The translations under genes and the position numbers were made by a program. This document shows positions 3,055 through 62,149 of a DNA stretch of 64,000 nt, one piece after another; within the stretch, counting starts at the first letter, position 1, and the number at the start of each line of letters is the position of its first letter. Source of the DNA: Candidatus Micrarchaeota archaeon (GTDB lineage Archaea; Micrarchaeota; Micrarchaeia; Micrarchaeales; CABMGC01); contig JAJZRI010000002.1 in assembly GCA_021802765.1 (NCBI GenBank), positions 27,299 to 91,298 on the forward strand, read 5' to 3'. The notes under the pieces were generated by a model. The model had not been told where the DNA came from and ran no database searches. It worked only from the letters and a program-made list of their open reading frames with translations.

Positions 3055-4617
3055 ATGTCCAGAAACATTCGCAAGAAGGAAAAGTTCCAGGCGTCTATAG
3101 AGTATCTCTCAACGTTTTCAATCGCACTTCTCATAATATTAATAATACTTGCAGTGGTTGGCCTTAATCTTTTCGGAAACAATTCCTTGCAGAACCTTGC
3201 CACATCCTCATGTTACTTGTCAGCAGAACTTCAGTGCTCTCAGATAGCCATATCAAACAACGGCATATCTACCTCAGCAATAATAATCTTCACAAATAAT
3301 TTAGGTAGGCAGATAAACTTCCAGAATTCAAACTCGATAGTGGTGACCTCCGGCACAACGCAGAAGTCCTACTATGGCAACTGCTATCCTGCAAACGCGG
3401 TTCCGGGCGCAACAGTGGTATGCAATGTTACCCTCTCAGGCTACTCCCCTTCAATAGGCGAGCAGCTCAGCCCAACATTCCAGCTAAAGTATTCAGAGTG
3501 CATAAGCGGGCAATGCATTGGCTATAATACTTCAGGAAGTGGGATAACCTATGTGGCCCCAAAGATTATTCTCTATCGTGTAAGGCTTCTTACAAGTCCT
3601 GACGGAGGGACGGTATCGGTAAACGGCGTCCCATACCTTAGCAACTCCATACTTTACTTCGTAGGAGACATATCCTATTCAATAGATGCGCAGTCATCTT
3701 ATGGCGGCACGGTATTTCAGGGCTGGATAACACAGGGTGGGGTCGTCGCTTCAAACACACTCAGGTTGTCCTCATCAGCCATAGCATCCTCAAACGGCAC
3801 TCTTGAAGCATCATACATCCCTCCAACCACATCCACTACTTCTACAACCACAAGTACGACTACCTCAACGTCTTCCACAACCACATCCACCACCTCTCCA
3901 ACTACCTCTTCAACCACCACCTCCCCAACCACCTCCCCAACCACCTCCCCAACCACTTCCCCAACCACTTTCCCAACCACTTCCCCAACCACCTCTCCAA
4001 CCACCTCTCCAACCACCTCCCCAACCACTTCCCCAACCACCAGTGCAACCACCTCCATTTCTTCTACAACTTCCATTACAACCACATCCACTTCCGCTAC
4101 AACCACTTCCATTTCATATGACGTATACTTTGTTGGAAGTCCTTCTGCCGGAGGAACTCCTACTGATGCTTCGGGCCAGACAACCTGTGTTGAATCTGCC
4201 GGCGGTGTTTGCGGAATGTATGCAAATACAAATTCTGGATATACCTTCTCACATTGGACCTGCTCCGGTGGGGCGTGCGCCTCCGCCGGTTACTGCGGCA
4301 CATGTTCCATCACGTCTGCCACAATCTACGGGTCATTAACCTTGACTGCATATTACACATCATCTGGAGGCACAACGACTGTTAACGGATGCAGCAGTTC
4401 CGGAGTCATATATGGAACCAACCAATGCAATGGCGCTTACTATGGTTATTGCTCAAGTCTCGGAACATCATACATATATGAGGGCGGCGCAGCAAATGAC
4501 GGTTGCACCGGATCCACACCCAACTTATGCCACACGTGTGGCGCAACTGATGATCTTGGAAACGTGGAAGGAACTTCAAATGATGATGGCGATAGCTGCG
4601 ACTCCTGGTCCTGTTGA
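3055..4617 (+). CDS. Class III signal peptide (pilin-like) surface protein, paralogue of 923..2770, with (TTSP)n linker and Cys-rich C-terminal module
   Basis: Signal region 'KKEKFQASIEYLSTFSIALLIILIILAVVG'. The N-terminal ~265 aa are collinear with the 923 gene. The C-terminus 'GYTFSHWTCSGGACASAGYCGTCSITSATIYGSLTLTAYY' is B-repeat-like, followed by a Cys/Gly/Asp-rich tail. Confidence 0.8.
   Translation: MSRNIRKKEKFQASIEYLSTFSIALLIILIILAVVGLNLFGNNSLQNLATSSCYLSAELQCSQIAISNNGISTSAIIIFTNNLGRQINFQNSNSIVVTSGTTQKSYYGNCYPANAVPGATVVCNVTLSGYSPSIGEQLSPTFQLKYSECISGQCIGYNTSGSGITYVAPKIILYRVRLLTSPDGGTVSVNGVPYLSNSILYFVGDISYSIDAQSSYGGTVFQGWITQGGVVASNTLRLSSSAIASSNGTLEASYIPPTTSTTSTTTSTTTSTSSTTTSTTSPTTSSTTTSPTTSPTTSPTTSPTTFPTTSPTTSPTTSPTTSPTTSPTTSATTSISSTTSITTTSTSATTTSISYDVYFVGSPSAGGTPTDASGQTTCVESAGGVCGMYANTNSGYTFSHWTCSGGACASAGYCGTCSITSATIYGSLTLTAYYTSSGGTTTVNGCSSSGVIYGTNQCNGAYYGYCSSLGTSYIYEGGAANDGCTGSTPNLCHTCGATDDLGNVEGTSNDDGDSCDSWSC
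3925..4040 (+). repeat. In-frame 12-bp tandem repeat (ccaaccacYtcY, about 10 units) encoding (PTTS)n
   Basis: Units read directly at 3925, 3937, 3949, 3961, 3973, 3985, 3997, 4009 and 4021, with a partial unit at 4033. Confidence 0.9.
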
Positions 4618-4636: not shown

Positions 4637-5494
4637 ATGGATGAAAAGATAAAACTGCTCATAACTGTATTTTCCATAATACTTGTAATTGTAGTAGTCC
4701 TTTTCTTATATTATGCCGATAATGCCACTTCAAAATTAAATGAATCAAATTACTCCATTTCAAATGTCTCAATACACGCAATGCATTCCATAGGCAGCAA
4801 ACCTAATTTCTCAATAGCTTACCTTGAGTATTCGACATATCCTGTATCGACCCAAACCGGCTATTCAAAAAATAATGGCTCATATTATACTACCTACTCT
4901 AAATACATCTATACTAATTATAGTGGATCATTGGTTCTCAACATCGCGTATCTTATCTCGCCTTATTACAATGCGTCAAGGGTATTAACTGGCATGATTG
5001 AAAATACGCTAAGTGGTGATTACATAAGCTGTTCACGCATGGATGCGTACGTCCTAGTAAATTGTACAAACACCCCTCCAAATCTCCCCTATCCCGGCCT
5101 AGAAGGTACTTTCCTCAATTTCCTAAATTTATCATTGCAAAATAGATACTATTACGTCAACGGTACAGTTCATACTTTTGCAAATCTTTCTTCATCCGAA
5201 ACTACTATCTCAAATTCCAGTTTCATTGGATATCCATGCCAGCTTAGCAGATCGCACATATTTGATGCACAATACCCAAGTATAAACGGAACTTCATATA
5301 GATGCATTTCATCTCAATATGGGGTTCCATTGCTCATATTCATAGACCTGCACGATCCGTATTACAACAATGTCGGCGCAGACATAATACTCAATGTATC
5401 TGCAATTTACATAAACCCAAAAGTTAATGAATCGTACTTTAAGATAGTTACAAACAGGACAGAACTATTCCCTCAAAGTATGATCAGTAAATAG
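4637..5494 (+). CDS. Membrane-anchored (N-terminal TM) extracellular protein rich in N-glycosylation sequons; function unknown
   Basis: TM segment 'LLITVFSIILVIVVVLFLYY'. I count 17 N-x-S/T sequons in 285 aa. It starts 19 nt after the preceding stop, so it is probably co-transcribed. Confidence 0.6.
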   Translation: MDEKIKLLITVFSIILVIVVVLFLYYADNATSKLNESNYSISNVSIHAMHSIGSKPNFSIAYLEYSTYPVSTQTGYSKNNGSYYTTYSKYIYTNYSGSLVLNIAYLISPYYNASRVLTGMIENTLSGDYISCSRMDAYVLVNCTNTPPNLPYPGLEGTFLNFLNLSLQNRYYYVNGTVHTFANLSSSETTISNSSFIGYPCQLSRSHIFDAQYPSINGTSYRCISSQYGVPLLIFIDLHDPYYNNVGADIILNVSAIYINPKVNESYFKIVTNRTELFPQSMISK

Positions 5495-5505: not shown

Positions 5506-6204
5506 ATGCCAAGAAACCATCGAAAGGCAAAATCGCCAAACAAACGCAATGCAGTTGGCAAAACGATAGCCTTAGGCAAAAAAATATCAACGGCCGCGTT
5601 TATAATTATATTGGTTGTTGTTCTGTATTACGCTTCATCTGGCGCTGTTCGTAAGTTTAGCCCTACTACAACATCGCCAAAATTCAACAACGTAACACTT
5701 AACATAACTATGAAAGTGGTTAATGACCAGGCCCTGGCCGTTCCGTTCAATTATTACTGGGCTCTTGGCAATTATACTAAAAATATTGTTGCAACACCAG
5801 ATGGAAATTATTCCTACCTAGTAACCATTACATCAATTGGTAATTGGACTACTTTTAAAGGCCTAATGGACCCAAGGAATACCACTCCAGAGCCAAAAAA
5901 TGGTTCCGGAACATTCATTGAAACCTATTCCTTGCAGGTGCCAGGAAACCTAAACCTATCACGTCCGACAACTGGATTTATCGGCACATATAATTTTAAC
6001 GGGTCATTGCAAAACATTCTTGCAGGCATGCCACCAAGCAACATATTTAACTGGCCCGGAGCGTATTTTAGTACCGGCTTTGAGTATGTGAATTTGATTA
6101 ATGTCAACGAGACGTTCATGTATGGCAATCAGACATACAAGTACCATTATACAAATATTAACGGTCAAATAAATGAGACGCACAGTGGAGACATTTTAAC
6201 ATAG
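5506..6204 (+). CDS. Membrane-anchored (N-terminal TM) extracellular protein, sequon-rich; function unknown
   Basis: Basic N-terminus plus 'ISTAAFIIILVVVLYYA' TM. I count 12 N-x-S/T sequons. It starts 11 nt after the preceding stop. Confidence 0.6.
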   Translation: MPRNHRKAKSPNKRNAVGKTIALGKKISTAAFIIILVVVLYYASSGAVRKFSPTTTSPKFNNVTLNITMKVVNDQALAVPFNYYWALGNYTKNIVATPDGNYSYLVTITSIGNWTTFKGLMDPRNTTPEPKNGSGTFIETYSLQVPGNLNLSRPTTGFIGTYNFNGSLQNILAGMPPSNIFNWPGAYFSTGFEYVNLINVNETFMYGNQTYKYHYTNINGQINETHSGDILT

Positions 6205-39800: not shown

Positions 39801-40934
39801 TCATTTTAGATTCAGTTTTGAGAACAACGCCTTATAGAACCCCCTTATCTCGGACTTGGAGTACATGGCCAGGTTCTTCCTGTTGAATATGTATCTGTCC
39901 GGATTCTTGCTGTTTGCTATCTCTACGAGCCTTTTCGGTATCTGGCTTTCGCTTGCAACAACGCACATCTCGCTTACCTCCCGGGGTATTGGCGTGTCGC
40001 TTGGCAGAACCACCGGCGTACCCAGTGCGACGCTCTCTATGGCAATTATCCCAAGTCCTTCCCTTTCCGACATGTGCAGTACCGCGCAGGCCTTGCGAAT
40101 CTTCCGATATAGCTCAATGTTGTCCTTATAAAAATCGACAACTCGGATCTTGCCATCCATTCTTATCTCCTTTATCATGTCCTCTACTGTCCTCTTCTCA
40201 GGGCCTTTGCCTATTATCAGTCCGCGTATAGAATTATCGTGCAGGTATGCGGATCTTAGCGCTATTAGCCACCTATCAAGCCTCTTCTCCTTTATCATCC
40301 GTCCGGAGAAGAGAACGAGCTTAGACTTTGCCACTTTCTCCTTCCTTATCTTTCCTATCACACCGTCATCCAGATTCGGTGCGAATACGGATATTCTTGG
40401 CTTTCTGATCCCTAAGTTTTCCAATTTCTTTGTCGTCGTGCTGGATATTGTTATGTAGTGATCTGCACCTTTTATCGCTCTTACTGAATATGGATAGGCA
40501 AGGCTCCCTGCAACCCTTCCGATGTACTTTATCCAGTAATCCCTGTCCCACACTTCAGCAACCTCGACTATGAGTTTTGCATTAACTCTCTTGCAATACT
40601 TCTTGAGCGCAGCAAGGTGGACTATAGGGAACGCGTTTGTTATTACTATATCGAAATCATAATCGTACATCCTCTTTAATGAATTTGCATATGCAATTGC
40701 TTCCCTTATCGACCTTCTTCCATGCCTGTATATCTTAGACTGCTCTGTTCTGTGCATTGCGTGGTAGTGTATCCCGTGATAGGTGAATTCCTCCCCTTTC
40801 ATCCCCTCCCATCTAGTAGTGAAATAGTGCACTTCATGGTCCTTGGCAAGTTGCTCTGCTTCGTTGTAGTTCATTGACTCTATGCCGCCGACGTGCCACG
40901 GGTAAGGGACATCATATACGAATGCTATCTTCAT
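39801..40934 (-). CDS. Glycosyltransferase, GT4 (group 1) family
   Basis: 'HMSEREGLGIIAIESVALGTPVV' (E-x7-E) and a GT-B size of 377 aa. Confidence 0.8.
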   Translation of the reverse strand: MKIAFVYDVPYPWHVGGIESMNYNEAEQLAKDHEVHYFTTRWEGMKGEEFTYHGIHYHAMHRTEQSKIYRHGRRSIREAIAYANSLKRMYDYDFDIVITNAFPIVHLAALKKYCKRVNAKLIVEVAEVWDRDYWIKYIGRVAGSLAYPYSVRAIKGADHYITISSTTTKKLENLGIRKPRISVFAPNLDDGVIGKIRKEKVAKSKLVLFSGRMIKEKRLDRWLIALRSAYLHDNSIRGLIIGKGPEKRTVEDMIKEIRMDGKIRVVDFYKDNIELYRKIRKACAVLHMSEREGLGIIAIESVALGTPVVLPSDTPIPREVSEMCVVASESQIPKRLVEIANSKNPDRYIFNRKNLAMYSKSEIRGFYKALFSKLNLK

Positions 40935-42643
40935 CGTCTCCCCTTCTTCGCCTTCTTGTTCTCAATGAAATAATTTCCCATGAACATGTACCTTGAGTTG
41001 GTCTTCTTTAGCGTGTCAAGCGCGTCCTCCGGAGATGCAACTATCGGCATTCCGTGTATGTTGAAGCTGGTGTTGAGCACCACGCCGTATCCGCTCCTCT
41101 TCTTCACGCTCTTAAGAAGCTCCCTATACGCCTTGTTCTCGCTACCAACCATCTGTGGCCTTGCCGTCATGTCAACGTGCACTACGGACTTCATCACCTC
41201 CCTTGCCGACTCCTTTACTCTGTATCCCATTGTCATGAACCTATCGCTTCCTTTTACGTCCTCAAGTAGCCTGCTTGCCTCCTCTTCAAGCATCGATGGC
41301 GCGAAAGGCTGGTACCATTCGCGCTGCTTTACATAAGTGTTGAGCTTGTCCTTGACGCTCTCAGAGCTTGAATTGCCCACTATGCTTCTGTCTCCCAGTG
41401 CGCGTGGTCCGTACTCCATCCTTCCCTGGAACCAGAGCAGATAGTCGTTTGACTCTATTATCTCTGCCGCATGGCCAGCCACATTATCCTCCCTATCGAA
41501 CGAAACGTCCTTTTCTTTTTTTAGTATCTTCAATACGTGCTCATTATCGTATTCTTCTCCAAGGTACGAGTCCGGGAACTGGTAATGCGACGTTCCATTT
41601 TCCAGATAGTTGGCATGGAGCGCAGCCCCAAGAGCTATGCCTCCGTCGCCCATATGTGGGAAGATATACCATCCCTTAAGCTTTTCAAGTGCGCGTATTT
41701 TCATGTTTGCCTTTATGTTAGACATTATTCCTCCTGCAAATGAGACGTCTCCAATGCCATACTCATCTATTGCATTTGATACGAACTCCGTGATGATATT
41801 CTCGAGCAGTTGCTGGGCCATGTATGCGAACTGTTCCCTGGGGATACCCCATGCCATCCTGCTTAGGATGTCATACTGGTTTATCGGGCCGTACTTGGCC
41901 TTTATCCCGACTCCGACAACGCTAAAGAAGTCCTTTAGCTTGTTCTTTGAGAACGGGAACGGGAACGAGTAATCAGCCATTGCCATTATCTTTCCCTCAT
42001 CCTCAAGCTCTCGCATTCCTATGATGTTCGTTACCTGTTCGTAGAATATCCCTATCGAGTCCCCTCCAGGAATCTCTACCTTCCTTGTCATTTCCCCTCC
42101 TTCAAGAGTGCTTACGGACCCGGACAGGCCGTCTCCTATCCCGTCAAGTGTTATCACAAGCTGGTCTTTCATTCCCGAGGTGAATGCGGCTGTCGCTGCA
42201 TGCGCGCGATGATGATCTATAGATACCAATTTGACATCATTAAAGCCGACCTTCTCAAGTTCTTTAGAGACTTCGTATCTACTAATCTCATCGCAGAAAG
42301 GGAGCGGGCCCACAGTGGTCATAGCGTACTTTGTATAATGCATCAGACTCTCAAGCCTTGGCCTTAGCATCTTCCTCCTCCTGAACCGATAGTATGCCTC
42401 CTTCTGCATAGGAAATACCCGCGATATGGTTTTGGAGAGGTCAGTAGTAGGGAATGCGACCATGTCCACGTCAGAAGGCCGTATGCCCTCGAACGAGAGG
42501 GCTGCAGATATGGAGTTGCGGGGGAAGTCTATCTCCAGCTTCCTCTTCGTGTACCTTTCCTCATTGGATGCGAATATTATCTTATTGTCCTTCACAAGAG
42601 CGGCTCCGGAATCGTGACCGTCCCAAACACCAAGAATATACAT
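40931..42643 (-). CDS. Carbamoyltransferase (NodU/CmcH/TobZ family)
   Basis: 'MYILGVWDGHDSGAALV' and 'VVLNTSFNIHGMPIV'. The start is taken at the internal Met. The track's extension to 42712 overlaps the upstream gene. Confidence 0.8.
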   Translation of the reverse strand: MYILGVWDGHDSGAALVKDNKIIFASNEERYTKRKLEIDFPRNSISAALSFEGIRPSDVDMVAFPTTDLSKTISRVFPMQKEAYYRFRRRKMLRPRLESLMHYTKYAMTTVGPLPFCDEISRYEVSKELEKVGFNDVKLVSIDHHRAHAATAAFTSGMKDQLVITLDGIGDGLSGSVSTLEGGEMTRKVEIPGGDSIGIFYEQVTNIIGMRELEDEGKIMAMADYSFPFPFSKNKLKDFFSVVGVGIKAKYGPINQYDILSRMAWGIPREQFAYMAQQLLENIITEFVSNAIDEYGIGDVSFAGGIMSNIKANMKIRALEKLKGWYIFPHMGDGGIALGAALHANYLENGTSHYQFPDSYLGEEYDNEHVLKILKKEKDVSFDREDNVAGHAAEIIESNDYLLWFQGRMEYGPRALGDRSIVGNSSSESVKDKLNTYVKQREWYQPFAPSMLEEEASRLLEDVKGSDRFMTMGYRVKESAREVMKSVVHVDMTARPQMVGSENKAYRELLKSVKKRSGYGVVLNTSFNIHGMPIVASPEDALDTLKKTNSRYMFMGNYFIENKKAKKGRR

Positions 42644-42651
42644 ATGACCAC

Positions 42652-43713
42652 TTAAACAATCAGGCTCCAGATATTTCCGACAAGCGTCTGATAAGCTTCG
42701 CATGCGGTCCATGCTCCCGGCTCCTTGCCCTGCGCTATAAGCTTCCTTACCTCCTCGGCTTCGCTATTGTGCCATATCTTGGATAGGTCATAATCCGTCT
42801 CTCTTATGCTTCCTATCTTCCTGTTCCACATTATCGATGGAAAAACGTTTCCGTAGCTGTCCATGAACAGCGAGGCGTCAAGGCTCCGTCCGCGCATCGG
42901 TGAGTTGCCGGTCTTTATGTAGTACCCAAGCCTCTTTAGGAATGCATTTTCAACTATAGGTATGGCTCCTATTTCAGGTCTTCTTGCTTTTAGGAACTGG
43001 TCCAGTTCGCCTACGAATCCTGCAGCATCTGGCCTGAGCTGCATGTCCGAATTCTTGTAATAAGTGTCTGATGTCTGTCCTACATTCACGTGAAAGTTGT
43101 TGGCAGTGACCCATGGGAGCTCCTTTTGAACCTGGGCTATGGTCTCCATAAGCTTCCCTTCGTTGTACTTGCTCATCGTGTACCCGAAGACGAAGAAGAG
43201 ATTACGGTATCTTGACTGCATCTCCTTAAGTCGCTTTGCCATTCCCATAACCCTGTCAAAATTCCCAGGTATGCCTCTTATCTTATCATGCAGCTCGCGA
43301 TAGCCATCCAGGCTCAGGGTTATTGAGACCTTCGGTATGCCTAGCTGTAGTATGGATTCTATTCTTCCCGCAACCATGTCGGGGTTGCATAGGGAATTTG
43401 TCGGCATTGTCACTATGTAAAGATCCTTGGAGTTATCCTTGAAGGCCTTTACTATGTCAACAATGTCGCTTCTCAGGAATGGTTCGCCTCCTGTTATTTC
43501 TACCCACTTGAAATAGTTGTTCTTCTGGGCGAATGCAGTTATCTCTCGCAGGTCGAGCTCTCCTGTCGGCTTTATCTGCCATATATTGCAGGTCAGGCAG
43601 CGCGACTGGCAAGAGTAGGTTATCGAAAAGGTGAGCTTGTAGGGCCGGTCAAGACGCGCAAAATTGCTCCTAAGCGCGGTCAAGCCAAGTCCTGCCAGCT
43701 TTACAGAGTCCAT
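42652..43713 (-). CDS. Radical SAM enzyme (SPASM-like C-terminal region lacking most Cys ligands)
   Basis: 'ITYSCQSRCLTCNIW' (CxxxCxxC) and 'EITGGEPFL'. The C-terminus 'LFMDSYGNVFPSIMWNRKIGSIRE...IWHS' is SPASM-shaped, but Ser occupies the Cys positions. Confidence 0.75.
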   Translation of the reverse strand: MDSVKLAGLGLTALRSNFARLDRPYKLTFSITYSCQSRCLTCNIWQIKPTGELDLREITAFAQKNNYFKWVEITGGEPFLRSDIVDIVKAFKDNSKDLYIVTMPTNSLCNPDMVAGRIESILQLGIPKVSITLSLDGYRELHDKIRGIPGNFDRVMGMAKRLKEMQSRYRNLFFVFGYTMSKYNEGKLMETIAQVQKELPWVTANNFHVNVGQTSDTYYKNSDMQLRPDAAGFVGELDQFLKARRPEIGAIPIVENAFLKRLGYYIKTGNSPMRGRSLDASLFMDSYGNVFPSIMWNRKIGSIRETDYDLSKIWHNSEAEEVRKLIAQGKEPGAWTACEAYQTLVGNIWSLIV

Positions 43714-43810: not shown

Positions 43811-46387
43811 ATGCTTGCAGGATCAGCAAAATCACAATCAGCGCTTGAATTCCTTAGCGGATACATATGGGCATTCATCATAATCGCAATAATCTTAAGT
43901 GTGATCTATTATCTTCTTGCAATCCCTAGCGCTATAACTTCAACAAGCTGCAGCTTGACCAGCGGAGTTGACTGCAAAGGTCTAATAGTAGGGTCGAAAG
44001 CAGGTACCACCCAATTCGATGCCGTAATAGTAAACGCACAGCAATATGATTTTGTGGGGCCGACAAGCCTCATATTCAATGTTTCTGGATATGGCAATGT
44101 TACAGCAATATGCTCTCCAGCCAACGTAATATCTGGCGGCACGACAATATGCAGCGGATCAATCAGTGCCAACATCGTGCAATCATCTATAATAAGAGGC
44201 CTAATAAAGGTGACTACTGGCGTCTGTCTGTCCGGTAATGTGAATAAGTGCACTGCCATTGCCCCTACAACTTATATTGGCAACTTTTCATCGCAGGTTG
44301 GCGCTTATACAAACAACAATCTACCAGTAAATTTGGCACTTTACGTGGCTTCTTCTTCAACATCTGCAGGTACTCAGGATCTTATCACAGCAAACATAAA
44401 AATATTCAGCCTGCCAGCGTCAAGCTCGGGAATTACATTCAGTACGAACGTTCCTTCCTACGTTACCATCTCTCCGGAATACGTATTGACAAATTCAAAT
44501 GGGAATGCAACTGCGGAGTTCACTGCAACTGCAGGTGGCACTTACAATATAATTGCCACTTATGGCAATTATGTTGCATCTAATACAATAATCGTATCAA
44601 GTCCGACTACTACGGTGTCTCAATGCTATTCCCTAACATTGGCAGATACCTCTGGCGGGGCGAGTGTATCTGCATCTCCATCCAATTCCGCAGGATGTTC
44701 CCCTGGAAGCTACTCTGCAGGGGCCGTTATAACTCTAACTGCAACGCCTTCTTCAGGAAATGCATTCACCAGCTGGTCAGGTACATATCAGAGCACTTCG
44801 AATCCGTGGTCCTACTCAATGCCATCCAGTGCTGCAACTGAAACTGCAAATTATAACATCTGCTATCAGCTCACGCTTACTGATGGATCAGGAGGTTCAA
44901 GTGTGGTTGCTTCCCCATCAAACTCAGCAGGATGCTCTTCGGGAAGTTACTTCTCTGGTACTGCAATAACTCTTACAGCAACTCCTGCTTCAGGATACAT
45001 CTTCTCCAGCTGGACTGGAACGTCATCCTCATCATCAAATCCATGGTCGTATTCAATGCCTGCCAGCACCGCAACTGAGACTGCAAACTACGCGCAGTGC
45101 TACCAACTCACGCTTACTGATGGATCAGGAGGTTCAAGTGTGGTTGCTTCCCCATCAAACTCAGCAGGATGCTCTTCGGGAAGTTACTTCTCTGGTACTG
45201 CAATAACTCTTACAGCAACTCCTGCTTCAGGATACATCTTCTCCAGCTGGACTGGAACGTCATCCTCATCATCAAATCCATGGTCGTATTCAATGCCTGC
45301 CAGCACCGCAACTGAGACTGCAAACTACGCGCAGTGCTACCAACTCACACTTACTGATGGAACAGGAGGTTCAAGTGTGTCCGCCTCCCCATCAAACTCC
45401 ATAGGCTGCTCTTCAGGATATTATATCTCAGGAGCGGCAGTAACTCTTACAGCAACTCCTGCTTCAGGATACATCTTCTCCAGCTGGACTGGAACGTCAT
45501 CCTCATCATCAAATCCATGGTCGTATTCAATGCCTGCCAGCACCGCAACAGAGACTGCAAACTACGCCTCTTCATGTACTGGAACAAATACACTTACTGT
45601 TACTAGTTATCTATCTCTAACAGCATCAGCGTCGACTACTGTTAGCTATACTATGTATGGTGGCGGCGGTGGTGGAAACTACGCTGGATATGGAACAAGC
45701 AGTACGGGAGGAAGCTACAGTACAGGAAGTTTTGCTATAACTAGTGGTCAAACCTTAACAGTATATGCTGGTGGCGGCGGAGGAGGTGCAAGTAGTGATG
45801 AGGGTGGTGGAGGTGGCGGCGGAGGCAGCGGATATTATGGTGGAGGTGGCGGCGCAGGATGCGGATATCCTGCAGGTGGCGGAGGCGGAGGTTCGTCAGC
45901 TGTTTTGGTCAGCGGGTCGGTAACAGCATGCGCAAATGGTGGTACTGGTGCAAGTGATACTACTTATGGCGCGTATGGCGGCTCCGGAGCAACTTGCTCT
46001 GCTGGTGGCTCAGGAGGAACAGGGGGCGGAAACTGCGGCTCATATCCTGGATATGCCGGAGGTCTGAATTTTGGCGGTAATGGCAATCCTGCAAGCTGGA
46101 CTGCTGGTTACGGCGGTTCCGGCGGAGGCGGAGGTACTGGCGGTTCAAGTTGCGGCGGAGGCGGTGGCGGAGGATACGGAGCAGGCGGAGGAGGCGGATC
46201 ATTTTGTAACGGCGGAGGCGCAGGTGGCAGCAGCGGTGGTAATGGAGGTAACAACGGCGGCGGGTATGGTGGCGGTGTAGGTGGAGATAGCGGCACAGGA
46301 GGTGCAAGTACAACTACTTCTGGTTCAGGTGGAGGGAATGGCGGCAGTGTAACTCTTAGCTGGCCAGGATCATCATGCCCTATCTAA
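43811..46387 (+). CDS. Large class III signal peptide (pilin-like) surface protein: N-domain, four B-repeat domains, Gly-dominated C-terminal domain
   Basis: Signal region 'AKSQSALEFLSGYIWAFIIIAIILSVIYYLLA'. Four 79-aa repeats read 'CYQLTLTDGSGGSSV.ASPSNS.GCSSGSY.SG.A.TLTATPASGYIFSSWTGT...TETANY' (divergent InlB B-repeat pattern). The last ~270 aa are runs of G with S/A/Y/T/C. Confidence 0.8.
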   Translation: MLAGSAKSQSALEFLSGYIWAFIIIAIILSVIYYLLAIPSAITSTSCSLTSGVDCKGLIVGSKAGTTQFDAVIVNAQQYDFVGPTSLIFNVSGYGNVTAICSPANVISGGTTICSGSISANIVQSSIIRGLIKVTTGVCLSGNVNKCTAIAPTTYIGNFSSQVGAYTNNNLPVNLALYVASSSTSAGTQDLITANIKIFSLPASSSGITFSTNVPSYVTISPEYVLTNSNGNATAEFTATAGGTYNIIATYGNYVASNTIIVSSPTTTVSQCYSLTLADTSGGASVSASPSNSAGCSPGSYSAGAVITLTATPSSGNAFTSWSGTYQSTSNPWSYSMPSSAATETANYNICYQLTLTDGSGGSSVVASPSNSAGCSSGSYFSGTAITLTATPASGYIFSSWTGTSSSSSNPWSYSMPASTATETANYAQCYQLTLTDGSGGSSVVASPSNSAGCSSGSYFSGTAITLTATPASGYIFSSWTGTSSSSSNPWSYSMPASTATETANYAQCYQLTLTDGTGGSSVSASPSNSIGCSSGYYISGAAVTLTATPASGYIFSSWTGTSSSSSNPWSYSMPASTATETANYASSCTGTNTLTVTSYLSLTASASTTVSYTMYGGGGGGNYAGYGTSSTGGSYSTGSFAITSGQTLTVYAGGGGGGASSDEGGGGGGGGSGYYGGGGGAGCGYPAGGGGGGSSAVLVSGSVTACANGGTGASDTTYGAYGGSGATCSAGGSGGTGGGNCGSYPGYAGGLNFGGNGNPASWTAGYGGSGGGGGTGGSSCGGGGGGGYGAGGGGGSFCNGGGAGGSSGGNGGNNGGGYGGGVGGDSGTGGASTTTSGSGGGNGGSVTLSWPGSSCPI
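44624..45571 (+). repeat. Four in-frame 237-bp tandem repeats (units at 44624, 44861, 45098, 45335)
   Basis: All unit starts are in frame with ATG 43811. By direct comparison, units 2 and 3 differ at 2 of 237 nt. Unit 4 shares its 3' half identically. Confidence 0.9.
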
Positions 46388-46672: not shown

Positions 46673-47602
46673 TTAGATTCCAACAAGAAGAGGAAGCTGC
46701 GCCGAAATCTTTTTTGCAGACTCTAAAAGCGCAGCTTTTTCTTCATCCGAAAGCGCCATTACCACTATTTTTTCCACACCCTTATTGCCAAGAACAACCG
46801 GCACTCCAAGGAACAATCCGCTCAAGCCGTACTCCCCTTCCAGGTATGCAGAGCATGGCATTATTTTCTTTTTGTCATTGAGTATCGAGTCCACCATGCT
46901 CACAACAGACGATGCAGGCGCATAGTATGCGCTCGATCCCTCGAGTTTTATTATCTCTGCGCCGCCGTCCCTTGCGCGCTCCACAATTCTCTTAAGCTTC
47001 TCTTTTTCTATGAGCTTCTCAACTGGAAATCCATTCACCGTTGTCGCGGAGAGTATTGCGACCATCGAATCGCCATGGCTGCCAAGTATCATAGTCTTGA
47101 CCTCCTTCGGAGTTACTTTGAGCTCCTCTGATATGAATGTGGTCAGTCTTGCGGAGTCTAGCATCCCTGCCATGCCTATTATCCTTCCTTTCTCAAATCC
47201 GGTCTTTTGCCTCATGAGATATGCCATGGCATCTAGAGGATTGCTCACCATTATGACTATGCTGCTTGGCGCATACTGCTTTATTTTTTCTGCAACTGCT
47301 GCAATTATCTGCGCGTTGGTCTTCAAGAGGTCGTCGCGCGTCATTCCCTCCTTCCTCTGCGCTCCGGCCGTCACGACAACTATATCGCTCCCTGCGATCT
47401 GAGAGTAATCTCCAGTCCCGACAACACTCGAGTCGCTCCCTTCGACGGGAGTGCTCTGCTTTATGTCCAATGCGACTCCCTGCGCAAGACCCTCCGTCCT
47501 GTTTACAAGCACTACATCTGCCAATCCCTTAAGTGCAAGCAGCTGCGCTGTCGTCGAACCTACCTTGCCTGCTCCTATCACGCTTACTTTCTTGTGAGAC
47601 AT
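46673..47602 (-). CDS. mdh: Malate dehydrogenase (LDH-like MDH family)
   Basis: 'MSHKKVSVIGAGKVGSTTA' Rossmann N-terminus and 'VVVTAGAQRKEGMTRDDL'. The start is at the internal ATG (47600-47602). The track's extension to 47776 overlaps gltA. Confidence 0.9.
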   Translation of the reverse strand: MSHKKVSVIGAGKVGSTTAQLLALKGLADVVLVNRTEGLAQGVALDIKQSTPVEGSDSSVVGTGDYSQIAGSDIVVVTAGAQRKEGMTRDDLLKTNAQIIAAVAEKIKQYAPSSIVIMVSNPLDAMAYLMRQKTGFEKGRIIGMAGMLDSARLTTFISEELKVTPKEVKTMILGSHGDSMVAILSATTVNGFPVEKLIEKEKLKRIVERARDGGAEIIKLEGSSAYYAPASSVVSMVDSILNDKKKIMPCSAYLEGEYGLSGLFLGVPVVLGNKGVEKIVVMALSDEEKAALLESAKKISAQLPLLVGI

Positions 47603-47723
47603 ACCAATCAGATATATCTGGCAGGAAATATATTTAACATTGACATTGGGCCTTTTATAGAAATATAACCGAATCCGGGATGCACAATTAAATTCTTTCT
47701 TAGCATATTCTATATGTGGGATT

Positions 47724-48881
47724 ATGGTGGAAGCAGAGAAGCCGCATATAAGCAGCGGCCTTGAAGGGGTGTACATAGCCGAAAGTTCGATATGTAAGGT
47801 GGACGGACAGAATGGAAGGCTCTATTATCGGGGCTATTCGATAGATGTGCTTTCGAGTAACTCTAATTTCGCAGAGGTCTGCTACCTGCTGCTTAATGGG
47901 AAGCTCCCAAGCAGCGCAGAGTTTAGCGATTTCAACAGGCAGCTTGTCGAGGCAAGGGATCTTCCAGAAGGCGTTGTGAATATAATCAAGGAAATGTCTA
48001 AAAAGTCCCATCCAATGGATATTCTTAGGACGGCTGTCTCCTCACTCTCTGCTTATGACGCAGAGACTGCAGATCAGTCGCCAGAGGCCAATTTGCGTAA
48101 GAGCATTAGGATAATCTCTAAGATGTCGAGCATAGTAGCAACGATTGGCAGGATAAATGCGGGTGGAAGCTATGTTGCTCCGGACAAATCCCTTTCACAC
48201 GAGGAGAACTTTTTGTACATGCTCAACGCAAAGAAGCCGGACAAAAGGCAGGTGGACATAATGCGCGACATGTTCATAATACACGCAGAGCACAGTTCCA
48301 ACGCATCGACATTCGGCACAATGGTCGCAGGTTCAACGCTTGCCGACATATACTCTGCAATAACATCTGGAATATCAGTATTGAAAGGACCTCTGCACGG
48401 CGGCGCAGATGAGGCGGCGCTTCGGATGATGAAGGCCATAGGAAGCCCGGACAATACCGAAGCGTACATAGATAGCGCACTTGCAGGAAAGCAGAAGATA
48501 ATGGGATTCGGGCACAGAGTCTACAAGGCTTACGATCCGCGTGCAAAGATAATCAAGGCATATCTTGAATCGCTTCAGCTCGATGCCAGTGCCGAGGTAA
48601 AGACATACACCGCAATAGCCCTACGGTCGGAGAAGATGATGGTCGAAAAACTGAGCCAGTCGCACGGAATATGGCCCAACGTCGACTTCTTTGCAGGTCC
48701 GGTTTACGTTGCCGCAGGAATACCTCCGGAGCTCTTCACTCCGATATTCGCCGCAAGCAGGTCTCCTGGATGGTGCGCACACATGCTCGAGTACTGGAAG
48801 AACAACAAGCTCTTTAGGCCCCTAGAGGTCTACACCGGGCAGCTGGATCTGCAGTACGTGCCAATAGAAAAGAGGCAGTGA
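47724..48881 (+). CDS. gltA: Citrate synthase
   Basis: Signature 'GFGHRVYKAYDPRA' and 'LHGGA'. Confidence 0.95.
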   Translation: MVEAEKPHISSGLEGVYIAESSICKVDGQNGRLYYRGYSIDVLSSNSNFAEVCYLLLNGKLPSSAEFSDFNRQLVEARDLPEGVVNIIKEMSKKSHPMDILRTAVSSLSAYDAETADQSPEANLRKSIRIISKMSSIVATIGRINAGGSYVAPDKSLSHEENFLYMLNAKKPDKRQVDIMRDMFIIHAEHSSNASTFGTMVAGSTLADIYSAITSGISVLKGPLHGGADEAALRMMKAIGSPDNTEAYIDSALAGKQKIMGFGHRVYKAYDPRAKIIKAYLESLQLDASAEVKTYTAIALRSEKMMVEKLSQSHGIWPNVDFFAGPVYVAAGIPPELFTPIFAASRSPGWCAHMLEYWKNNKLFRPLEVYTGQLDLQYVPIEKRQ

Positions 48882-61258: not shown

Positions 61259-62149
61259 ATGCGCTTTGGGCAGCAAGCAGCGATGGAATACCTGATGACC
61301 TATGGTTGGGCCATCCTTATAGTAGCCATAGTGATAGTTGCCCTCTTCCAGCTCGGGATGTTCAATAACTCAAACCTTACTCCCCACGCAACTCCTGGCG
61401 CCTGCCAAGTAGTGCACAGCGCCGCAGGAAGCAGTCTCGCCGGCCAATGCAACAATGAAATTCCGCAATTCGTAGCGCAGTTCAACGGCCAAGGTGGCGA
61501 CATTGAGATAACTCCGTTCACATGGTCGTACTCTTCCACTATAAGTATGTGGGTCGATATAGCATCAACATCCGGTCAGAGTGCAAACCAGGTCCTAGTC
61601 TACACCTATGGTTTAAGTGGTTTTGGTGGCTGTATCAAGGACCTTGGAATATACACTGGAAACATATTTGGATATTATTACCAAACCAATCCAATGAGCA
61701 CGCAGTTTTCTATCAATAACTGGCACTTAATCACAGTAGAGGATAATTCCGCAGCAAATACGCAGTATTTCTATGTGGATGGGATGCTAGCTGGCTCTTC
61801 GAGCGGAGGTGTGACCTTCCCTTCAGGAGGCGGCACATATGGCTCTTTGTATAACATATACTTGGGATTCCCAACAGGTTCAAATAGTTGTGACCCATAC
61901 AGCACCTACTGGGCGCCTCTGGATGGTTATGTATCGAATCTACAGATATACAACACTTCTCTATCGTCAGGTGAGATTTCAGCCCTGTATCAGGAAGGCA
62001 TAGGCGGTGTGCCGGTGGATCCTACCCATATAGCTGGCTGGTGGCCTCTCAATGGCAATGCGCAGGATTATTCTGGCAATAGCCATAACGGACAACTCAC
62101 AGGAATCTCATGGAACGGCACATGGACCTCTGGATACACTGCTCCATGA
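61259..62149 (+). CDS. Class III signal peptide (pilin-like) protein with LamG/ConA-like domain
   Basis: Signal region 'MRFGQQAAMEYLMTYGWAILIVAIVIVALF'. LamG_3-type pattern 'ISMWV...WHLITVED..NTQYFYVDGML...LDGYVSNLQIYNTSLSSGEISALY'. It ends with 'GWWPLNGNAQDYSGNSHNG', the usual beginning of a further LamG repeat. Confidence 0.8.
   Translation: MRFGQQAAMEYLMTYGWAILIVAIVIVALFQLGMFNNSNLTPHATPGACQVVHSAAGSSLAGQCNNEIPQFVAQFNGQGGDIEITPFTWSYSSTISMWVDIASTSGQSANQVLVYTYGLSGFGGCIKDLGIYTGNIFGYYYQTNPMSTQFSINNWHLITVEDNSAANTQYFYVDGMLAGSSSGGVTFPSGGGTYGSLYNIYLGFPTGSNSCDPYSTYWAPLDGYVSNLQIYNTSLSSGEISALYQEGIGGVPVDPTHIAGWWPLNGNAQDYSGNSHNGQLTGISWNGTWTSGYTAP

What the first reader, a model, noticed from the sequence alone, without database searches (positions are those of the whole stretch)
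43811..46387. 858-aa pilin-like protein with near-identical 237-bp domain repeats and a ~270-aa glycine-dominated tail
Seen in the sequence:
- After a class III signal peptide and an N-domain come four in-frame 237-bp units.
- Each unit encodes a 'G..[AV].TLTATPASGYIFSSWTG' B-repeat-type domain.
- Units 2 and 3 differ at only 2 nt, which indicates very recent expansion or concerted evolution.
- The protein ends in a long run of GGGG/GGS/GYG segments with scattered Cys and short beta-like islands ('FAITSGQTLTVYAGGGGGG', 'SAVLVSGSVTACANGG').

Inference: this gives a fibre-like reach plus a glycine-rich terminal module, possibly a beta-helix or flexible adhesive tip.

Note that near-identical repeats are also an assembly risk.
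Basis: partly seen in the sequence, partly recalled or inferred. Interest (0 to 1): 0.55.

Follow-up and report, generated by a model that had tools for sequence, protein, structure and literature searches.

The report
Pilin-anchored stalked adhesin with glycine-rich tip
A real gene of a tiny symbiotic archaeon (Micrarchaeota) encodes a surface protein with a pilus-type anchor, a stalk of near-identical repeats and a tip that belongs to the same glycine-rich domain family as human ALK/LTK receptors and phage tail fibres; the tip differs sharply between otherwise almost identical strains, which makes it a candidate host-recognition molecule.

Summary
ORF 43811-46387(+) encodes 858 aa. It has a class-III-type N-terminus, two beta domains, four in-frame 237-nt Flg_new_2 (InlB B-repeat) units and a 272-aa tail that is 41.5% glycine. 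Units 2 and 3 differ at 2 nt.

The tail is not an orphan, a beta-helix or a floppy linker. It is a divergent member of the ALK/LTK-type glycine-rich domain (GRD) superfamily (PF12810/PF21722), which is also common in phage tail fibres. Direct Pfam scans miss it. A profile of the tails links it to the family through intermediate sequences and fold matches.

The same GRD subfamily also sits on other archaeal pilin-like proteins and on bacterial N_methyl pilins.

Two further findings:
- The repeat number is unreliable. Assemblies of essentially the same strain show 4, 3 or 2 units, or break inside the repeats.
- In syntenic orthologues at about 95-97% nucleotide identity, the N-part is 96-99% identical but the GRD only 57-58%. 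The tip behaves as a swappable cassette.

Best reading: a modular type IV pilin-like adhesin of a Micrarchaeota archaeon, with a variable-length stalk and a hypervariable receptor-binding tip. It is a new variant of a known kind, of moderate interest.

The parts
43811..43834 (+). Leader peptide of a class III (prepilin-type) signal peptide, aa 1-8 MLAGSAKS. The predicted cleavage is after S8, before Q9.
   Evidence: The sequence is seen directly. Q9 and E13 are invariant, and S10 and A11 nearly so, in alignment A5 of divergent relatives. Cleavage itself is inferred, not shown.
43835..43924 (+). Hydrophobic N-terminal alpha-helix of the mature protein (aa 9-38), with Glu at mature position +5. 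This is the assembly and anchor helix typical of type IV pilins.
   Evidence: The AF2 model has a helix at residues 11-36. E13 is invariant.
43943..44308 (+). First all-beta globular domain (aa 45-166), the pilin 'head'. It has six conserved Cys: C47, C55, C101, C114, C139, C147.
   Evidence: AF2 gives strands at 45-165 in a model with mean pLDDT 80. The Cys and P103 are conserved in A5. The two pilin-like ORFs at 923 and 3055 in this window share this domain type.
44327..44599 (+). Ig-like domain (aa 173-263) resembling Big_1.
   Evidence: The Pfam Big_1 match scores 22-25 bits, below the 34.9-bit cut-off. The AF2 beta-sandwich covers 173-263. The top Foldseek PDB hits for the model of aa 1-268 (this domain plus the beta head before it) are the intimin D00-D0 tandem Ig domains, E 5.8e-8.
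44624..44860 (+). B-repeat unit 1 (Flg_new_2). It is diverged from the other units (81-86 nt differences).
44861..45097 (+). B-repeat unit 2 (Flg_new_2).
45098..45334 (+). B-repeat unit 3. It is the product of a very recent duplication: its head (TGCTACCAA) matches unit 4 and its body is identical to unit 2. It is absent from the other assemblies of the same strain.
   Evidence: L004 lacks exactly this unit.
45335..45568 (+). B-repeat unit 4 (Flg_new_2; 25-27 nt differences from units 2 and 3). Two Logan contigs of the same strain end inside it, at window position 45520.
45569..46384 (+). C-terminal glycine-rich domain (aa 587-858), a divergent member of the ALK/LTK GRD superfamily. Conserved glycine blocks alternate with variable segments. 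The C-terminal motif GGSVTLSWPGSSCPI is conserved, as are a Cys at the start of the domain and a Cys near its end.
45673..46328 (+). Strain-variable cassette inside the tail. blastn alignment to orthologous loci L005, L006 and L008 is lost here, while both flanks stay at 95-97% identity. Identity already falls (78-84% nt) from about 45331. The left edge is 45673 against L008 and about 45860 against L005/L006.

Best explanation
The gene encodes a modular type IV pilin-like surface adhesin of a Micrarchaeota (DPANN) archaeon.

Proposed mechanism (steps 1, 2, 4 and 5 are inferred):
1. The short charged leader is removed by a prepilin peptidase before Q9.
2. The hydrophobic N-terminal helix, with Glu at +5, anchors the protein in the membrane. 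It probably also inserts it into, or at the tip of, a type IV pilus.
3. A beta 'head' domain, an Ig-like domain and a stalk of B-repeat (beta-grasp type) units project the C-terminal domain away from the cell. The domain order is shown.
4. The stalk changes length by unequal crossing-over between units that are nearly identical at the DNA level.
5. The tip is an ALK/LTK-type glycine-rich domain. Its conserved glycine blocks build the scaffold and its variable segments form the binding surface. Whole tip cassettes are exchanged between strains by recombination in the conserved flanks, which changes what the cell sticks to. The likely target is the surface of a host archaeon.
For: Domain architecture:
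- The ORF and its repeats are confirmed.
- AF2 of aa 1-268 gives a helix at 11-36 followed by two beta domains, mean pLDDT 80.
- Q9 and E13 are invariant in divergent relatives.

The tail is a GRD:
- The tail profile (A1) finds 229 proteins at E<=1e-3 among 1.84 billion.
- Of 88 of these hits scanned against Pfam, 24 are PF12810 ALK_LTK_GRD (best 4.4e-50), 5 are PF21722 and 5 carry the bacterial pilin N_methyl motif.
- A widened profile that includes the window tail hits PDB ALK (5.7e-9), LTK (1.9e-7, over 222 profile positions) and SCD-2 (3.3e-6).
- 16 of the 17 Foldseek PDB matches of the AF2 tail model are GRD proteins: Bxb1 tail tip, ALK, LTK and the Pam3 fibre.
- The search of predicted viral structures gives 22 hits at E<=1e-3, mostly glycine-rich-domain or tail-fibre proteins.
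- Homologue P0099 has the same architecture and passes the PF21722 cut-off directly.

The module recurs on pilin N-termini:
- Archaeal examples are P0121-P0124, P0128, P0140 and others. Bacterial examples are P0132-P0134, P0198 and P0256.
- Other modular pilin-like genes lie in the same window, including one with a LamG module.

Length variation: 4, 3 and 2 units occur in assemblies of one strain. Their hybrid units are those expected from unequal crossing-over.

Tip hypervariability:
- P0003 is 99% identical to the window protein in the N-part and 58% in the tail. P0005 is 96% and 57%.
- DNA alignment is lost only inside the tail.
- Conserved glycine blocks alternate with variable segments. 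This is the organisation of phage gp38 adhesins (PMC3157838).

Organism and biology:
- The two loci retrieved from the genome collection are both Micrarchaeota MAGs.
- A cultured member of this phylum carries two type IV pilus systems and a prepilin peptidase, and lives attached to Thermoplasmatales hosts (PMC5498576).
Against: - No Pfam or NCBIfam pilin model matches the N-terminus.
- No prepilin peptidase, assembly ATPase or platform gene lies in the 64-kb window or next to the homologues examined.
- Foldseek of the N-terminal model returns only generic tandem-Ig hits and no solved pilin.
- Direct hmmscan, phmmer and hhalign of the tail against Pfam, PDB or P0099 give nothing, so the GRD assignment is transitive.
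- The tail model is only moderately confident (pLDDT 65; residues 182-251 are poor) and the TM-scores to ALK are low, about 0.26.
- No binding partner, expression or localisation data exist.
- The differences in repeat number could be assembly artefacts rather than biology.
Confidence: 0.55

Rival explanations
1. A cell-surface fibrillar adhesin or envelope protein that is not a pilus subunit. In this reading the class-III-like N-terminus serves only as a secretion signal and single-helix membrane anchor, as in the archaeal sugar-binding proteins that carry prepilin-type signals. The stalk and the GRD tip work directly from the cell surface.
For: The gene is monocistronic among housekeeping genes and no pilus genes are nearby, here or at the homologous loci. 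The protein is very large for a pilin at 858 aa. No pilin family model matches. The divergently transcribed upstream genes, conserved at the orthologous loci where the contig reaches them, encode a radical SAM enzyme, a carbamoyltransferase and a glycosyltransferase, which suggests envelope or glycan biology.
Against: Q at +1 and E at +5 are invariant across very divergent relatives, which points to selection on prepilin-type processing and helix packing rather than a plain anchor. The same GRD subfamily is fused to bona fide bacterial N_methyl pilin N-termini. Archaeal pilin genes are often scattered away from the machinery (general knowledge; PMC4858521 is a census).
Confidence: 0.3
2. A matrix or self-association protein. 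In this reading the glycine-rich tip mediates homophilic contacts (glycine-rich PPII bundles binding each other) for aggregation or biofilm formation rather than recognition of another organism.
For: Polyglycine-II surfaces can associate with glycine-rich segments (modelling discussed in PMC13243192). Micrarchaeota grow in biofilms (general knowledge). Only 26 of the 858 residues are charged, which suits an acid-stable structural protein.
Against: Sharp allelic replacement of the tip between near-identical strains is more typical of recognition of a variable partner than of self-adhesion. The solved GRDs, in ALK/LTK and in phage fibres, bind heterologous ligands or receptors.
Confidence: 0.1
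3. The feature is largely an assembly artefact: a chimeric or mis-joined ORF created by collapsing or expanding repeats and low-complexity glycine codons in a metagenome assembly.
For: The same strain is assembled with 4, 3 or 2 units. Two contigs end at window position 45520 inside unit 4. The exact 242-nt repeat is longer than typical short reads.
Against: The N-part, the tail and both flanks are reproduced at 99-100% identity in independent assemblies from different sources. The reading frame is intact in all versions. The unit 2 to unit 3 junction has sequence that cannot be made by joining other parts of a 3-unit gene. More distant orthologues keep the architecture. Only the unit count is in doubt.
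Confidence: 0.03

Closest known systems
Modular type IV pilins of bacteria (e.g. Streptococcus sanguinis PilB with a vWA module and PilC with a lectin module; Raynaud et al. 2021, PMC8179133)
   Same: A class III signal peptide and a small pilin module carry a grafted functional module that mediates adhesion. A LamG/concanavalin-type modular pilin-like gene also lies in this window (61259-62149), paralleling PilC.
   Different: This protein is archaeal, and that survey covered only bacterial IPR012902 proteins. Here a long stalk (an Ig-like domain plus 2-4 B-repeats) sits between the pilin part and the module. The module is a glycine-rich domain, which is not among the architectures that paper highlights. 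Incorporation into a pilus is untested here.
ALK/LTK glycine-rich domain (PF12810) and the related phage and bacterial 'glycine-rich domain' (PF21722); structures 7LRZ, 7N00, 7NX0/7NX1, Bxb1 tail tip 9D93, Pam3 fibre 7YPX
   Same: The order of conserved blocks is the same: a beta strand followed by a GGGGG run, a second strand pair followed by GGGGG, GGGGxGYxGGGGG, GGGGGSSAI..G.L..A.GG.GG, GGGGGGYGGGGGG, and a final beta strand. Profile matches reach PDB ALK, LTK and SCD-2. Fold matches are almost exclusively to GRD proteins.
   Different: The tail is too divergent to reach either Pfam model directly. Most members of its subfamily (59 of 88 scanned) also escape both models. The subfamily has its own hallmarks: a Cys before the first strand, the motif SGYYGGGGG, and a C-terminal GGSVTL(S/T)W....C(P)(I/L/F). 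It is attached to pilin N-termini rather than to kinases or virion proteins.
Phage T-even/S16 gp38 tail-fibre adhesins (glycine-rich motifs separating hypervariable segments; PMC3157838)
   Same: Conserved glycine-rich motifs form a core, hypervariable segments lie between them, and a small motif is conserved at the extreme C-terminus. Specificity cassettes are exchanged by recombination in the conserved parts. Here the conserved and variable blocks and the allelic replacement bounded by conserved flanks show the same logic.
   Different: This is a cellular gene, not a phage gene. The fold matches are to the ALK type of GRD rather than to S16 gp38, which is absent from the Foldseek list. Receptor binding is not demonstrated.
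Periscope proteins and fibrillar adhesins of bacteria (variable-length stalks of DNA-identical tandem repeats; PMC8201768, PMC9704523, PMC9210967)
   Same: The stalk consists of tandem domains that are nearly identical at the DNA level and carries a distal binding domain. Unit number differs between genomes. Flg_new-type domains are already known as stalk domains (PMC9210967).
   Different: The anchor is a pilin-type N-terminal helix, not an LPXTG or other C-terminal anchor, so the polarity is reversed and the binding domain is C-terminal. The organism is an archaeon. The length variation seen here cannot yet be separated from assembly error.

Membership tests
Divergent InlB B-repeat (Pfam PF18998 Flg_new_2) | Match to the family HMM above the gathering score (23.6 bits) | tested here: met
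   The match scores 133 bits, E 3.6e-39, in four stretches, one per 237-nt unit. TIGR02543 matches only weakly: 17.3 bits against a cut-off of 20.95.
ALK/LTK-type glycine-rich domain superfamily (PF12810 / PF21722) | Direct match of the tail to either Pfam model above the gathering score | tested here: not met
   The tail alone matches no family at E<=10, and phmmer against PDB finds none. Composition-bias filtering is the likely cause, but the test as run failed.
ALK/LTK-type glycine-rich domain superfamily (PF12810 / PF21722) | Homology demonstrable by profile through intermediate sequences | tested here: met
   Profile A1 finds 229 hits at E<=1e-3. Of 88 hits scanned, 24 are PF12810 and 5 are PF21722. 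Widened profile A4 matches PDB ALK at 5.7e-9, LTK at 1.9e-7 and SCD-2 at 3.3e-6. The architecture twin P0099 passes PF21722 with 29.2 bits against a 24.3-bit cut-off.
ALK/LTK-type glycine-rich domain superfamily (PF12810 / PF21722) | Fold: a beta-sandwich carrying a lattice of polyglycine-II helices | tested here: inconclusive
Type IV pilin / class III signal peptide protein (archaeal) | Short charged leader, a small residue at -1, a conserved +1 residue, Glu at +5, then about 20-25 hydrophobic residues | tested here: met
   The sequence is MLAGSAKS|QSALEFLSGYIWAFIIIAIILSVIYYLLAI. Q9 and E13 are invariant in A2 and A5.
Type IV pilin / class III signal peptide protein (archaeal) | N-terminal extended alpha-helix followed by a beta-rich globular domain | tested here: met
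   AF2 gives a helix at 11-36 and then an all-beta domain at 45-165, in a model with mean pLDDT 80. Foldseek finds no solved pilin, only generic Ig tandems, so the head is consistent with a pilin but not diagnostic.
Type IV pilin / class III signal peptide protein (archaeal) | Match to a curated pilin N-terminal model (for example Pfam or NCBIfam archaeal pilin or N_methyl models) | tested here: not met
   No such family is reported for the full protein or for the first 65 aa.
Type IV pilin / class III signal peptide protein (archaeal) | Prepilin peptidase and pilus assembly genes in the genome; processing and incorporation into a filament | not testable with these tools
   Only 64 kb of the genome is available and it holds none of these genes. 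A cultured Micrarchaeon has two type IV pilus loci and one FlaK-like peptidase (PMC5498576).
Bacterial Ig-like domain group 1 (PF02369 Big_1) | HMM match above the gathering score (34.9 bits) | tested here: not met
   The match scores 22.1-25.5 bits. Structurally, the model of aa 1-268 gives intimin D00-D0 Ig domains as its best matches, E 5.8e-8. The domain is therefore Ig-like and Big_1-like, but is not filed as a member.
Periscope-type variable-length surface proteins | Tandem repeats nearly identical at the DNA level | tested here: met
   Units 2 and 3 differ at 2 nt of 237, with a 242-nt exact run.
Periscope-type variable-length surface proteins | Repeat number varies between strains or within populations | tested here: inconclusive
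   Assemblies that are 99-100% identical show 4, 3 or 2 units, and strains at about 95-97% identity show 2 or 3 units. All are metagenome assemblies and two contigs break in the repeats, so collapse cannot be excluded.

The most novel reading that the evidence does not exclude
GRD-tipped pilins may be a family, so far undescribed, that spans archaea (DPANN) and bacteria. In episymbiotic Micrarchaeota they would act as the host-recognition device. The pilus-anchored stalk would set the reach. A hypervariable glycine-rich tip, exchanged between strains as a cassette by recombination in conserved glycine and flank motifs, would set host specificity. That would be a cellular counterpart of phage gp38/GRD tail-fibre adhesins, and possibly evolutionarily connected to them.
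Probability: 0.25. Interest if true: 0.7.

Novelty: new variant of a known kind. Interest (0 to 1): 0.48.

Why it matters
How DPANN archaea find and hold their hosts is largely unknown at the molecular level. This gene gives a concrete, testable candidate: a surface protein with a pilus-type anchor, an adjustable stalk and a tip from a domain family that binds ligands in animal receptors and host receptors in phages. The tip also varies between strains in the way specificity determinants do.

The finding also shows that a sizeable subfamily of the ALK/LTK glycine-rich domain escapes the current Pfam models and is repeatedly fused to pilin N-termini in both archaea and bacteria.

In practical terms, the repeat number of this gene in metagenome-assembled genomes should not be trusted.

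Tried and rejected
Searches that found nothing or could not run:
- Direct Pfam scan of the tail at E<=10: nothing.
- phmmer of the tail against PDB: nothing.
- hmmsearch of the 11-tail profile against PDB: only a chance monobody hit.
- hhalign of the tail profile against the PF21722-positive tail of P0099: probability 0.9%, no support. The GRD link had to be made through the exhaustive profile search instead.
- Foldseek of the N-terminal model gave only generic Ig tandems and no pilin.
- Pfam on the first 65-70 aa of this and two other pilin-like ORFs of the window (the fourth was scanned only as a full protein): no pilin family.
- The homology search with aa 1-268 returned only two close fragments.
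- The exact look-up of P0001's contig was not on record, and the cluster look-up gave no names or organism. The organism is therefore inferred only from the two Micrarchaeota MAG titles retrieved.

Ideas considered and rejected:
- Silent tail cassettes in the window, of the pilS type: none. The tail profile matches only the gene itself in the six-frame translation.
- Diversity-generating retroelement mutagenesis as the source of tail variation: the alleles differ by indels and at about 42% of residues, not by site-specific substitutions.
- A prophage tail fibre: the gene sits among housekeeping genes in conserved synteny and has a pilin-type N-terminus.
- The minus-strand and out-of-frame ORFs inside the Gly-rich region (for example 46108-46296): by-products of GGN codon runs.
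Full report
**1. The observation**

The ORF 43811-46387 (+) is present and encodes 858 aa. The repeat finder gives four copies of a 237-nt unit in register and in frame (44624, 44861, 45098, 45335). TRF reports the same period. My own comparison shows that units 2 and 3 differ at 2 nt, at offsets 5 and 8, both synonymous. An exact 242-nt run with period 237 (44870-45111) means the duplication is in effect perfect.

The head of unit 3 (TGCTACCAA) is that of unit 4, while its body is that of unit 2. This is what unequal crossing-over between units 2 and 4 would produce. Unit 1 is old, with 81-86 nt differences from the others.

Pfam assigns all four units to PF18998 Flg_new_2 (133 bits). The tail (aa 587-858) is 41.5% Gly and has 8 Cys. 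The whole protein has only 26 charged residues.

**2. The gene is real and conserved, but the unit count is not secure**

The gene recurs at the same locus wherever the contigs reach that far. A radical SAM gene, a carbamoyltransferase gene and a glycosyltransferase gene lie upstream on the opposite strand. Malate dehydrogenase and TCA-cycle genes lie downstream. This holds in independent assemblies.

Assemblies of essentially the same strain disagree on the repeats:

| Assembly | Identity to window | Repeat region |
|---|---|---|
| L004 | 99.5-99.8% over 22 kb | lacks exactly unit 3 |
| L012, L013 | about 99.1-99.98%; N-part and tail proteins identical | two units, the second a unit-2/unit-4 hybrid |
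| L014, L015 (Logan contigs) | 100% | both stop at window position 45520, inside unit 4 |

The forms are the reciprocal products expected from unequal crossing-over, so real length polymorphism is equally possible. Only long reads can decide.

**3. The N-terminal part**

The N-terminus MLAGSAKS|QSALEFLSGYIWAFIIIAIILSVIYYLLAI has the layout of a class III signal peptide. In alignments with relatives as low as 21-25% identical, Q9, E13, C47, C55, C101, P103, C114 and C139 are invariant.

AF2 of aa 1-268 (mean pLDDT 80) gives a helix at 11-36, an all-beta domain at 45-165 and an Ig-like sandwich at 173-263. Foldseek returns tandem Ig domains, with intimin D00-D0 best at 5.8e-8, and no solved pilin. 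No curated pilin model matches. The pilin assignment therefore rests on the motif, its conservation and the helix-plus-beta layout. It is plausible but unproven.

Three further ORFs with the same kind of N-terminus lie in the window. One of them carries a Laminin_G_3 module.

**4. The tail**

Direct scans fail. I aligned eleven tails from homologues (A1). The alignment shows a fixed order of blocks:
- C..T.TSY, then a strand, then YGGGGG
- GSF....G..L.VYAGGGGGG
- GGGGSGYYGGGGG
- GGGGGSSAIL..G....A.GG.GG
- GGGGGGGYGGGGGG
- GGSVTLSWPGSSCPI

The links from this profile to the GRD family are as follows.
- The profile, run exhaustively against 1.84 billion representatives, finds 229 proteins at E<=1e-3 and 56 at E<=1e-10.
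- Of the 88 shortest hits scanned in Pfam, 24 are PF12810 ALK_LTK_GRD (best 4.4e-50), 5 are PF21722 Gly_rich_2 and 5 carry the bacterial pilin N_methyl motif.
- A widened alignment that keeps the window tail as first sequence (A4) matches the PDB sequences of human ALK (5.7e-9), LTK (1.9e-7, covering profile positions 14-235) and C. elegans SCD-2 (3.3e-6).
- The AF2 model of the tail (pLDDT 65, pTM 0.71) gives 17 Foldseek PDB matches. Sixteen of them are GRD proteins: the mycobacteriophage Bxb1 tail tip, ALK, LTK and the cyanophage Pam3 fibre.
- In the library of predicted viral structures it gives 22 hits at E<=1e-3, mostly 'glycine-rich domain-containing protein', tail-fibre or virion proteins.
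- A homologue with the same architecture (P0099) passes PF21722 directly.

I conclude that the tail is a divergent GRD. In solved structures this domain is a beta-sandwich bearing polyglycine-II helices (literature summarised in PMC13243192). I could not inspect PGII geometry, and TM-scores are low, so the fold itself remains 'inconclusive' by my tests.

**5. Distribution and modularity**

The same GRD subfamily, with its conserved C-terminal motif and terminal Cys, occurs in several settings:
- directly on archaeal pilin-like N-termini without B-repeats (P0121-P0124, P0128, P0140 and others);
- behind 1-4 B-repeats on at least three different pilin head types (P0008/P0009, P0013, P0017, P0024, P0050);
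- on bacterial proteins with N_methyl prepilin motifs (P0132-P0134, P0198, P0256). One of these lies on a clearly bacterial contig.

P0010 keeps the head and B-repeats of P0008/P0009 but has a different, non-glycine C-terminal domain. This is module shuffling of the kind described for bacterial modular pilins (PMC8179133). The two loci found in the genome collection are both Candidatus Micrarchaeota MAGs. The window itself carries archaeal housekeeping genes.

**6. Strain-level hypervariability of the tip**

Orthologues at the same locus whose flanks are 95-97% identical in DNA differ sharply in the tail.

| Orthologue | Head | Ig-like | Units 1-2 | Last unit | Tail |
|---|---|---|---|---|---|
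| P0003 | 173/175 | 95/96 | 79/79 each | 72/78 | 58% |
| P0005 | 168/175 | 92/96 | 77/79, 78/79 | 69/78 | 57% |
| P0004 | 168/175 | 91/96 | 73/79, 75/79 | has only 2 units | 88% (same tail type) |

In blastn the alignment stops inside the tail, at 45673 (L008) or 45860 (L005/L006), and resumes at 46328-46330, 57-59 nt before the stop codon.

Within the tail, the conserved glycine blocks and the two ends are kept. The segments at about tail residues 36-52, 74-82, 96-103, 111-180 and 211-254 vary. This is the organisation of phage gp38 adhesins: glycine-rich motifs, hypervariable segments, a conserved C-terminal extremity, and recombination in the conserved parts (PMC3157838). No silent cassette lies in the window.

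**7. Mechanism proposed**

Shown: the domain order, the family of the repeats, the family of the tail (transitively), the recent duplication, and the allelic replacement of the tip.

Inferred:
- cleavage before Q9 and anchoring or assembly through the N-terminal helix;
- projection of the GRD by the stalk;
- change of stalk length by unequal crossing-over, as in Periscope proteins (PMC8201768);
- binding of a partner surface by the variable segments of the GRD.

Micrarchaeota live attached to Thermoplasmatales. A cultured member has two type IV pilus systems and many surface adhesin-like proteins (PMC5498576). The most likely partner is therefore a host cell.

**8. Rivals**

- A non-pilus membrane-anchored adhesin (0.3).
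- A self-association or matrix protein (0.1).
- An assembly artefact (0.03; only the unit count is at risk).

**9. Novelty and score**

Every domain belongs to a known family, and the logic (modular pilin, fibrillar adhesin, variable tip) is known from bacteria and phages.

Three things are new. The first is the combination: an archaeal pilin-type anchor, a B-repeat stalk and a GRD tip. The second is a GRD subfamily that escapes the Pfam models and is fused to pilin N-termini in both domains of life. The third is the cassette-like variation of the tip between strains.

I rate it a new variant of a known kind, with interest about 0.48.

Noticed in passing
window 923-2770 (+) and 3055-4617 (+): Two tandem paralogous ORFs (615 and 520 aa) have class-III-type N-termini (RAQTSIEYLSTFSIALLIIL and KFQASIEYLSTFSIALLIIL) and the same Cys-containing beta head. 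Both have long Thr/Ser/Pro-rich linkers. The first ends in two repeats that look like Hint/intein-type domains, but Pfam Intein_splicing matches only at E 0.17. The second ends in a Cys-rich segment. Two small membrane-protein ORFs follow at 4637-5494 and 5506-6204.
   Followed up: partly
window 61259-62149 (+): A 296-aa ORF with the N-terminus GQQAAMEYLMTYGWAILIVAIV carries a Laminin_G_3 (concanavalin-like lectin) module (31.4 bits against a 27.6-bit cut-off). This is another modular pilin-like gene, paralleling S. sanguinis PilC and the LamG expansion reported in Micrarchaeota.
   Followed up: partly
proteins P0132, P0133, P0134, P0198, P0256; locus L009 8001-9023: Bacterial proteins with N_methyl prepilin motifs (GFSLAELMIVMLVLTIILA) carry the same GRD subfamily, including the C-terminal GGSVTL.Y....C(P)F motif. 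L009 is a bacterial contig with def, fmt, obg, sepF and flagellar rod genes. The module therefore occurs in both archaea and bacteria.
   Followed up: partly
protein P0010 compared with P0008/P0009 (locus L003 10001-12556): P0010 has the same pilin head and four B-repeats as P0008/P0009 but a different, non-glycine C-terminal domain of about 190 aa. This is an example of tip-module replacement on a constant stalk.
   Followed up: no
window 39801-43713 (-), and the same genes in L004, L005, L007, L012, L013: A glycosyltransferase (GT4), a carbamoyltransferase and a radical SAM gene are transcribed divergently from the pilin-like gene. They keep this position at the orthologous loci, although the first gene of L007 has no Pfam hit on record. 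They might modify the protein or the envelope, but this was not tested.
   Followed up: no
window 43811-46387, whole protein: Charged residues are extremely scarce (D 11, E 8, K 6, R 1, H 0 of 858). The protein has 22 Cys in a regular pattern, two per B-repeat and six in the head. This suggests a disulfide-stabilised protein adapted to an acidic exterior.
   Followed up: no
window 46108-46296 (-), 45960-46313 (-), 46071-46280 (+): The ORF listing output shows Pro-rich and Arg/Leu-rich ORFs on the other strand and in other frames of the glycine-rich region. They are by-products of GGN codon runs, not genes.
   Followed up: yes
window 46673-47776 (-): The mechanical ORF for malate dehydrogenase is 367 aa. 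In all related assemblies the called gene is 309 aa, starting at MSHKKVSVIGAG. The intergenic gap downstream of the pilin-like gene is therefore about 285 nt and contains T-rich stretches.
   Followed up: partly
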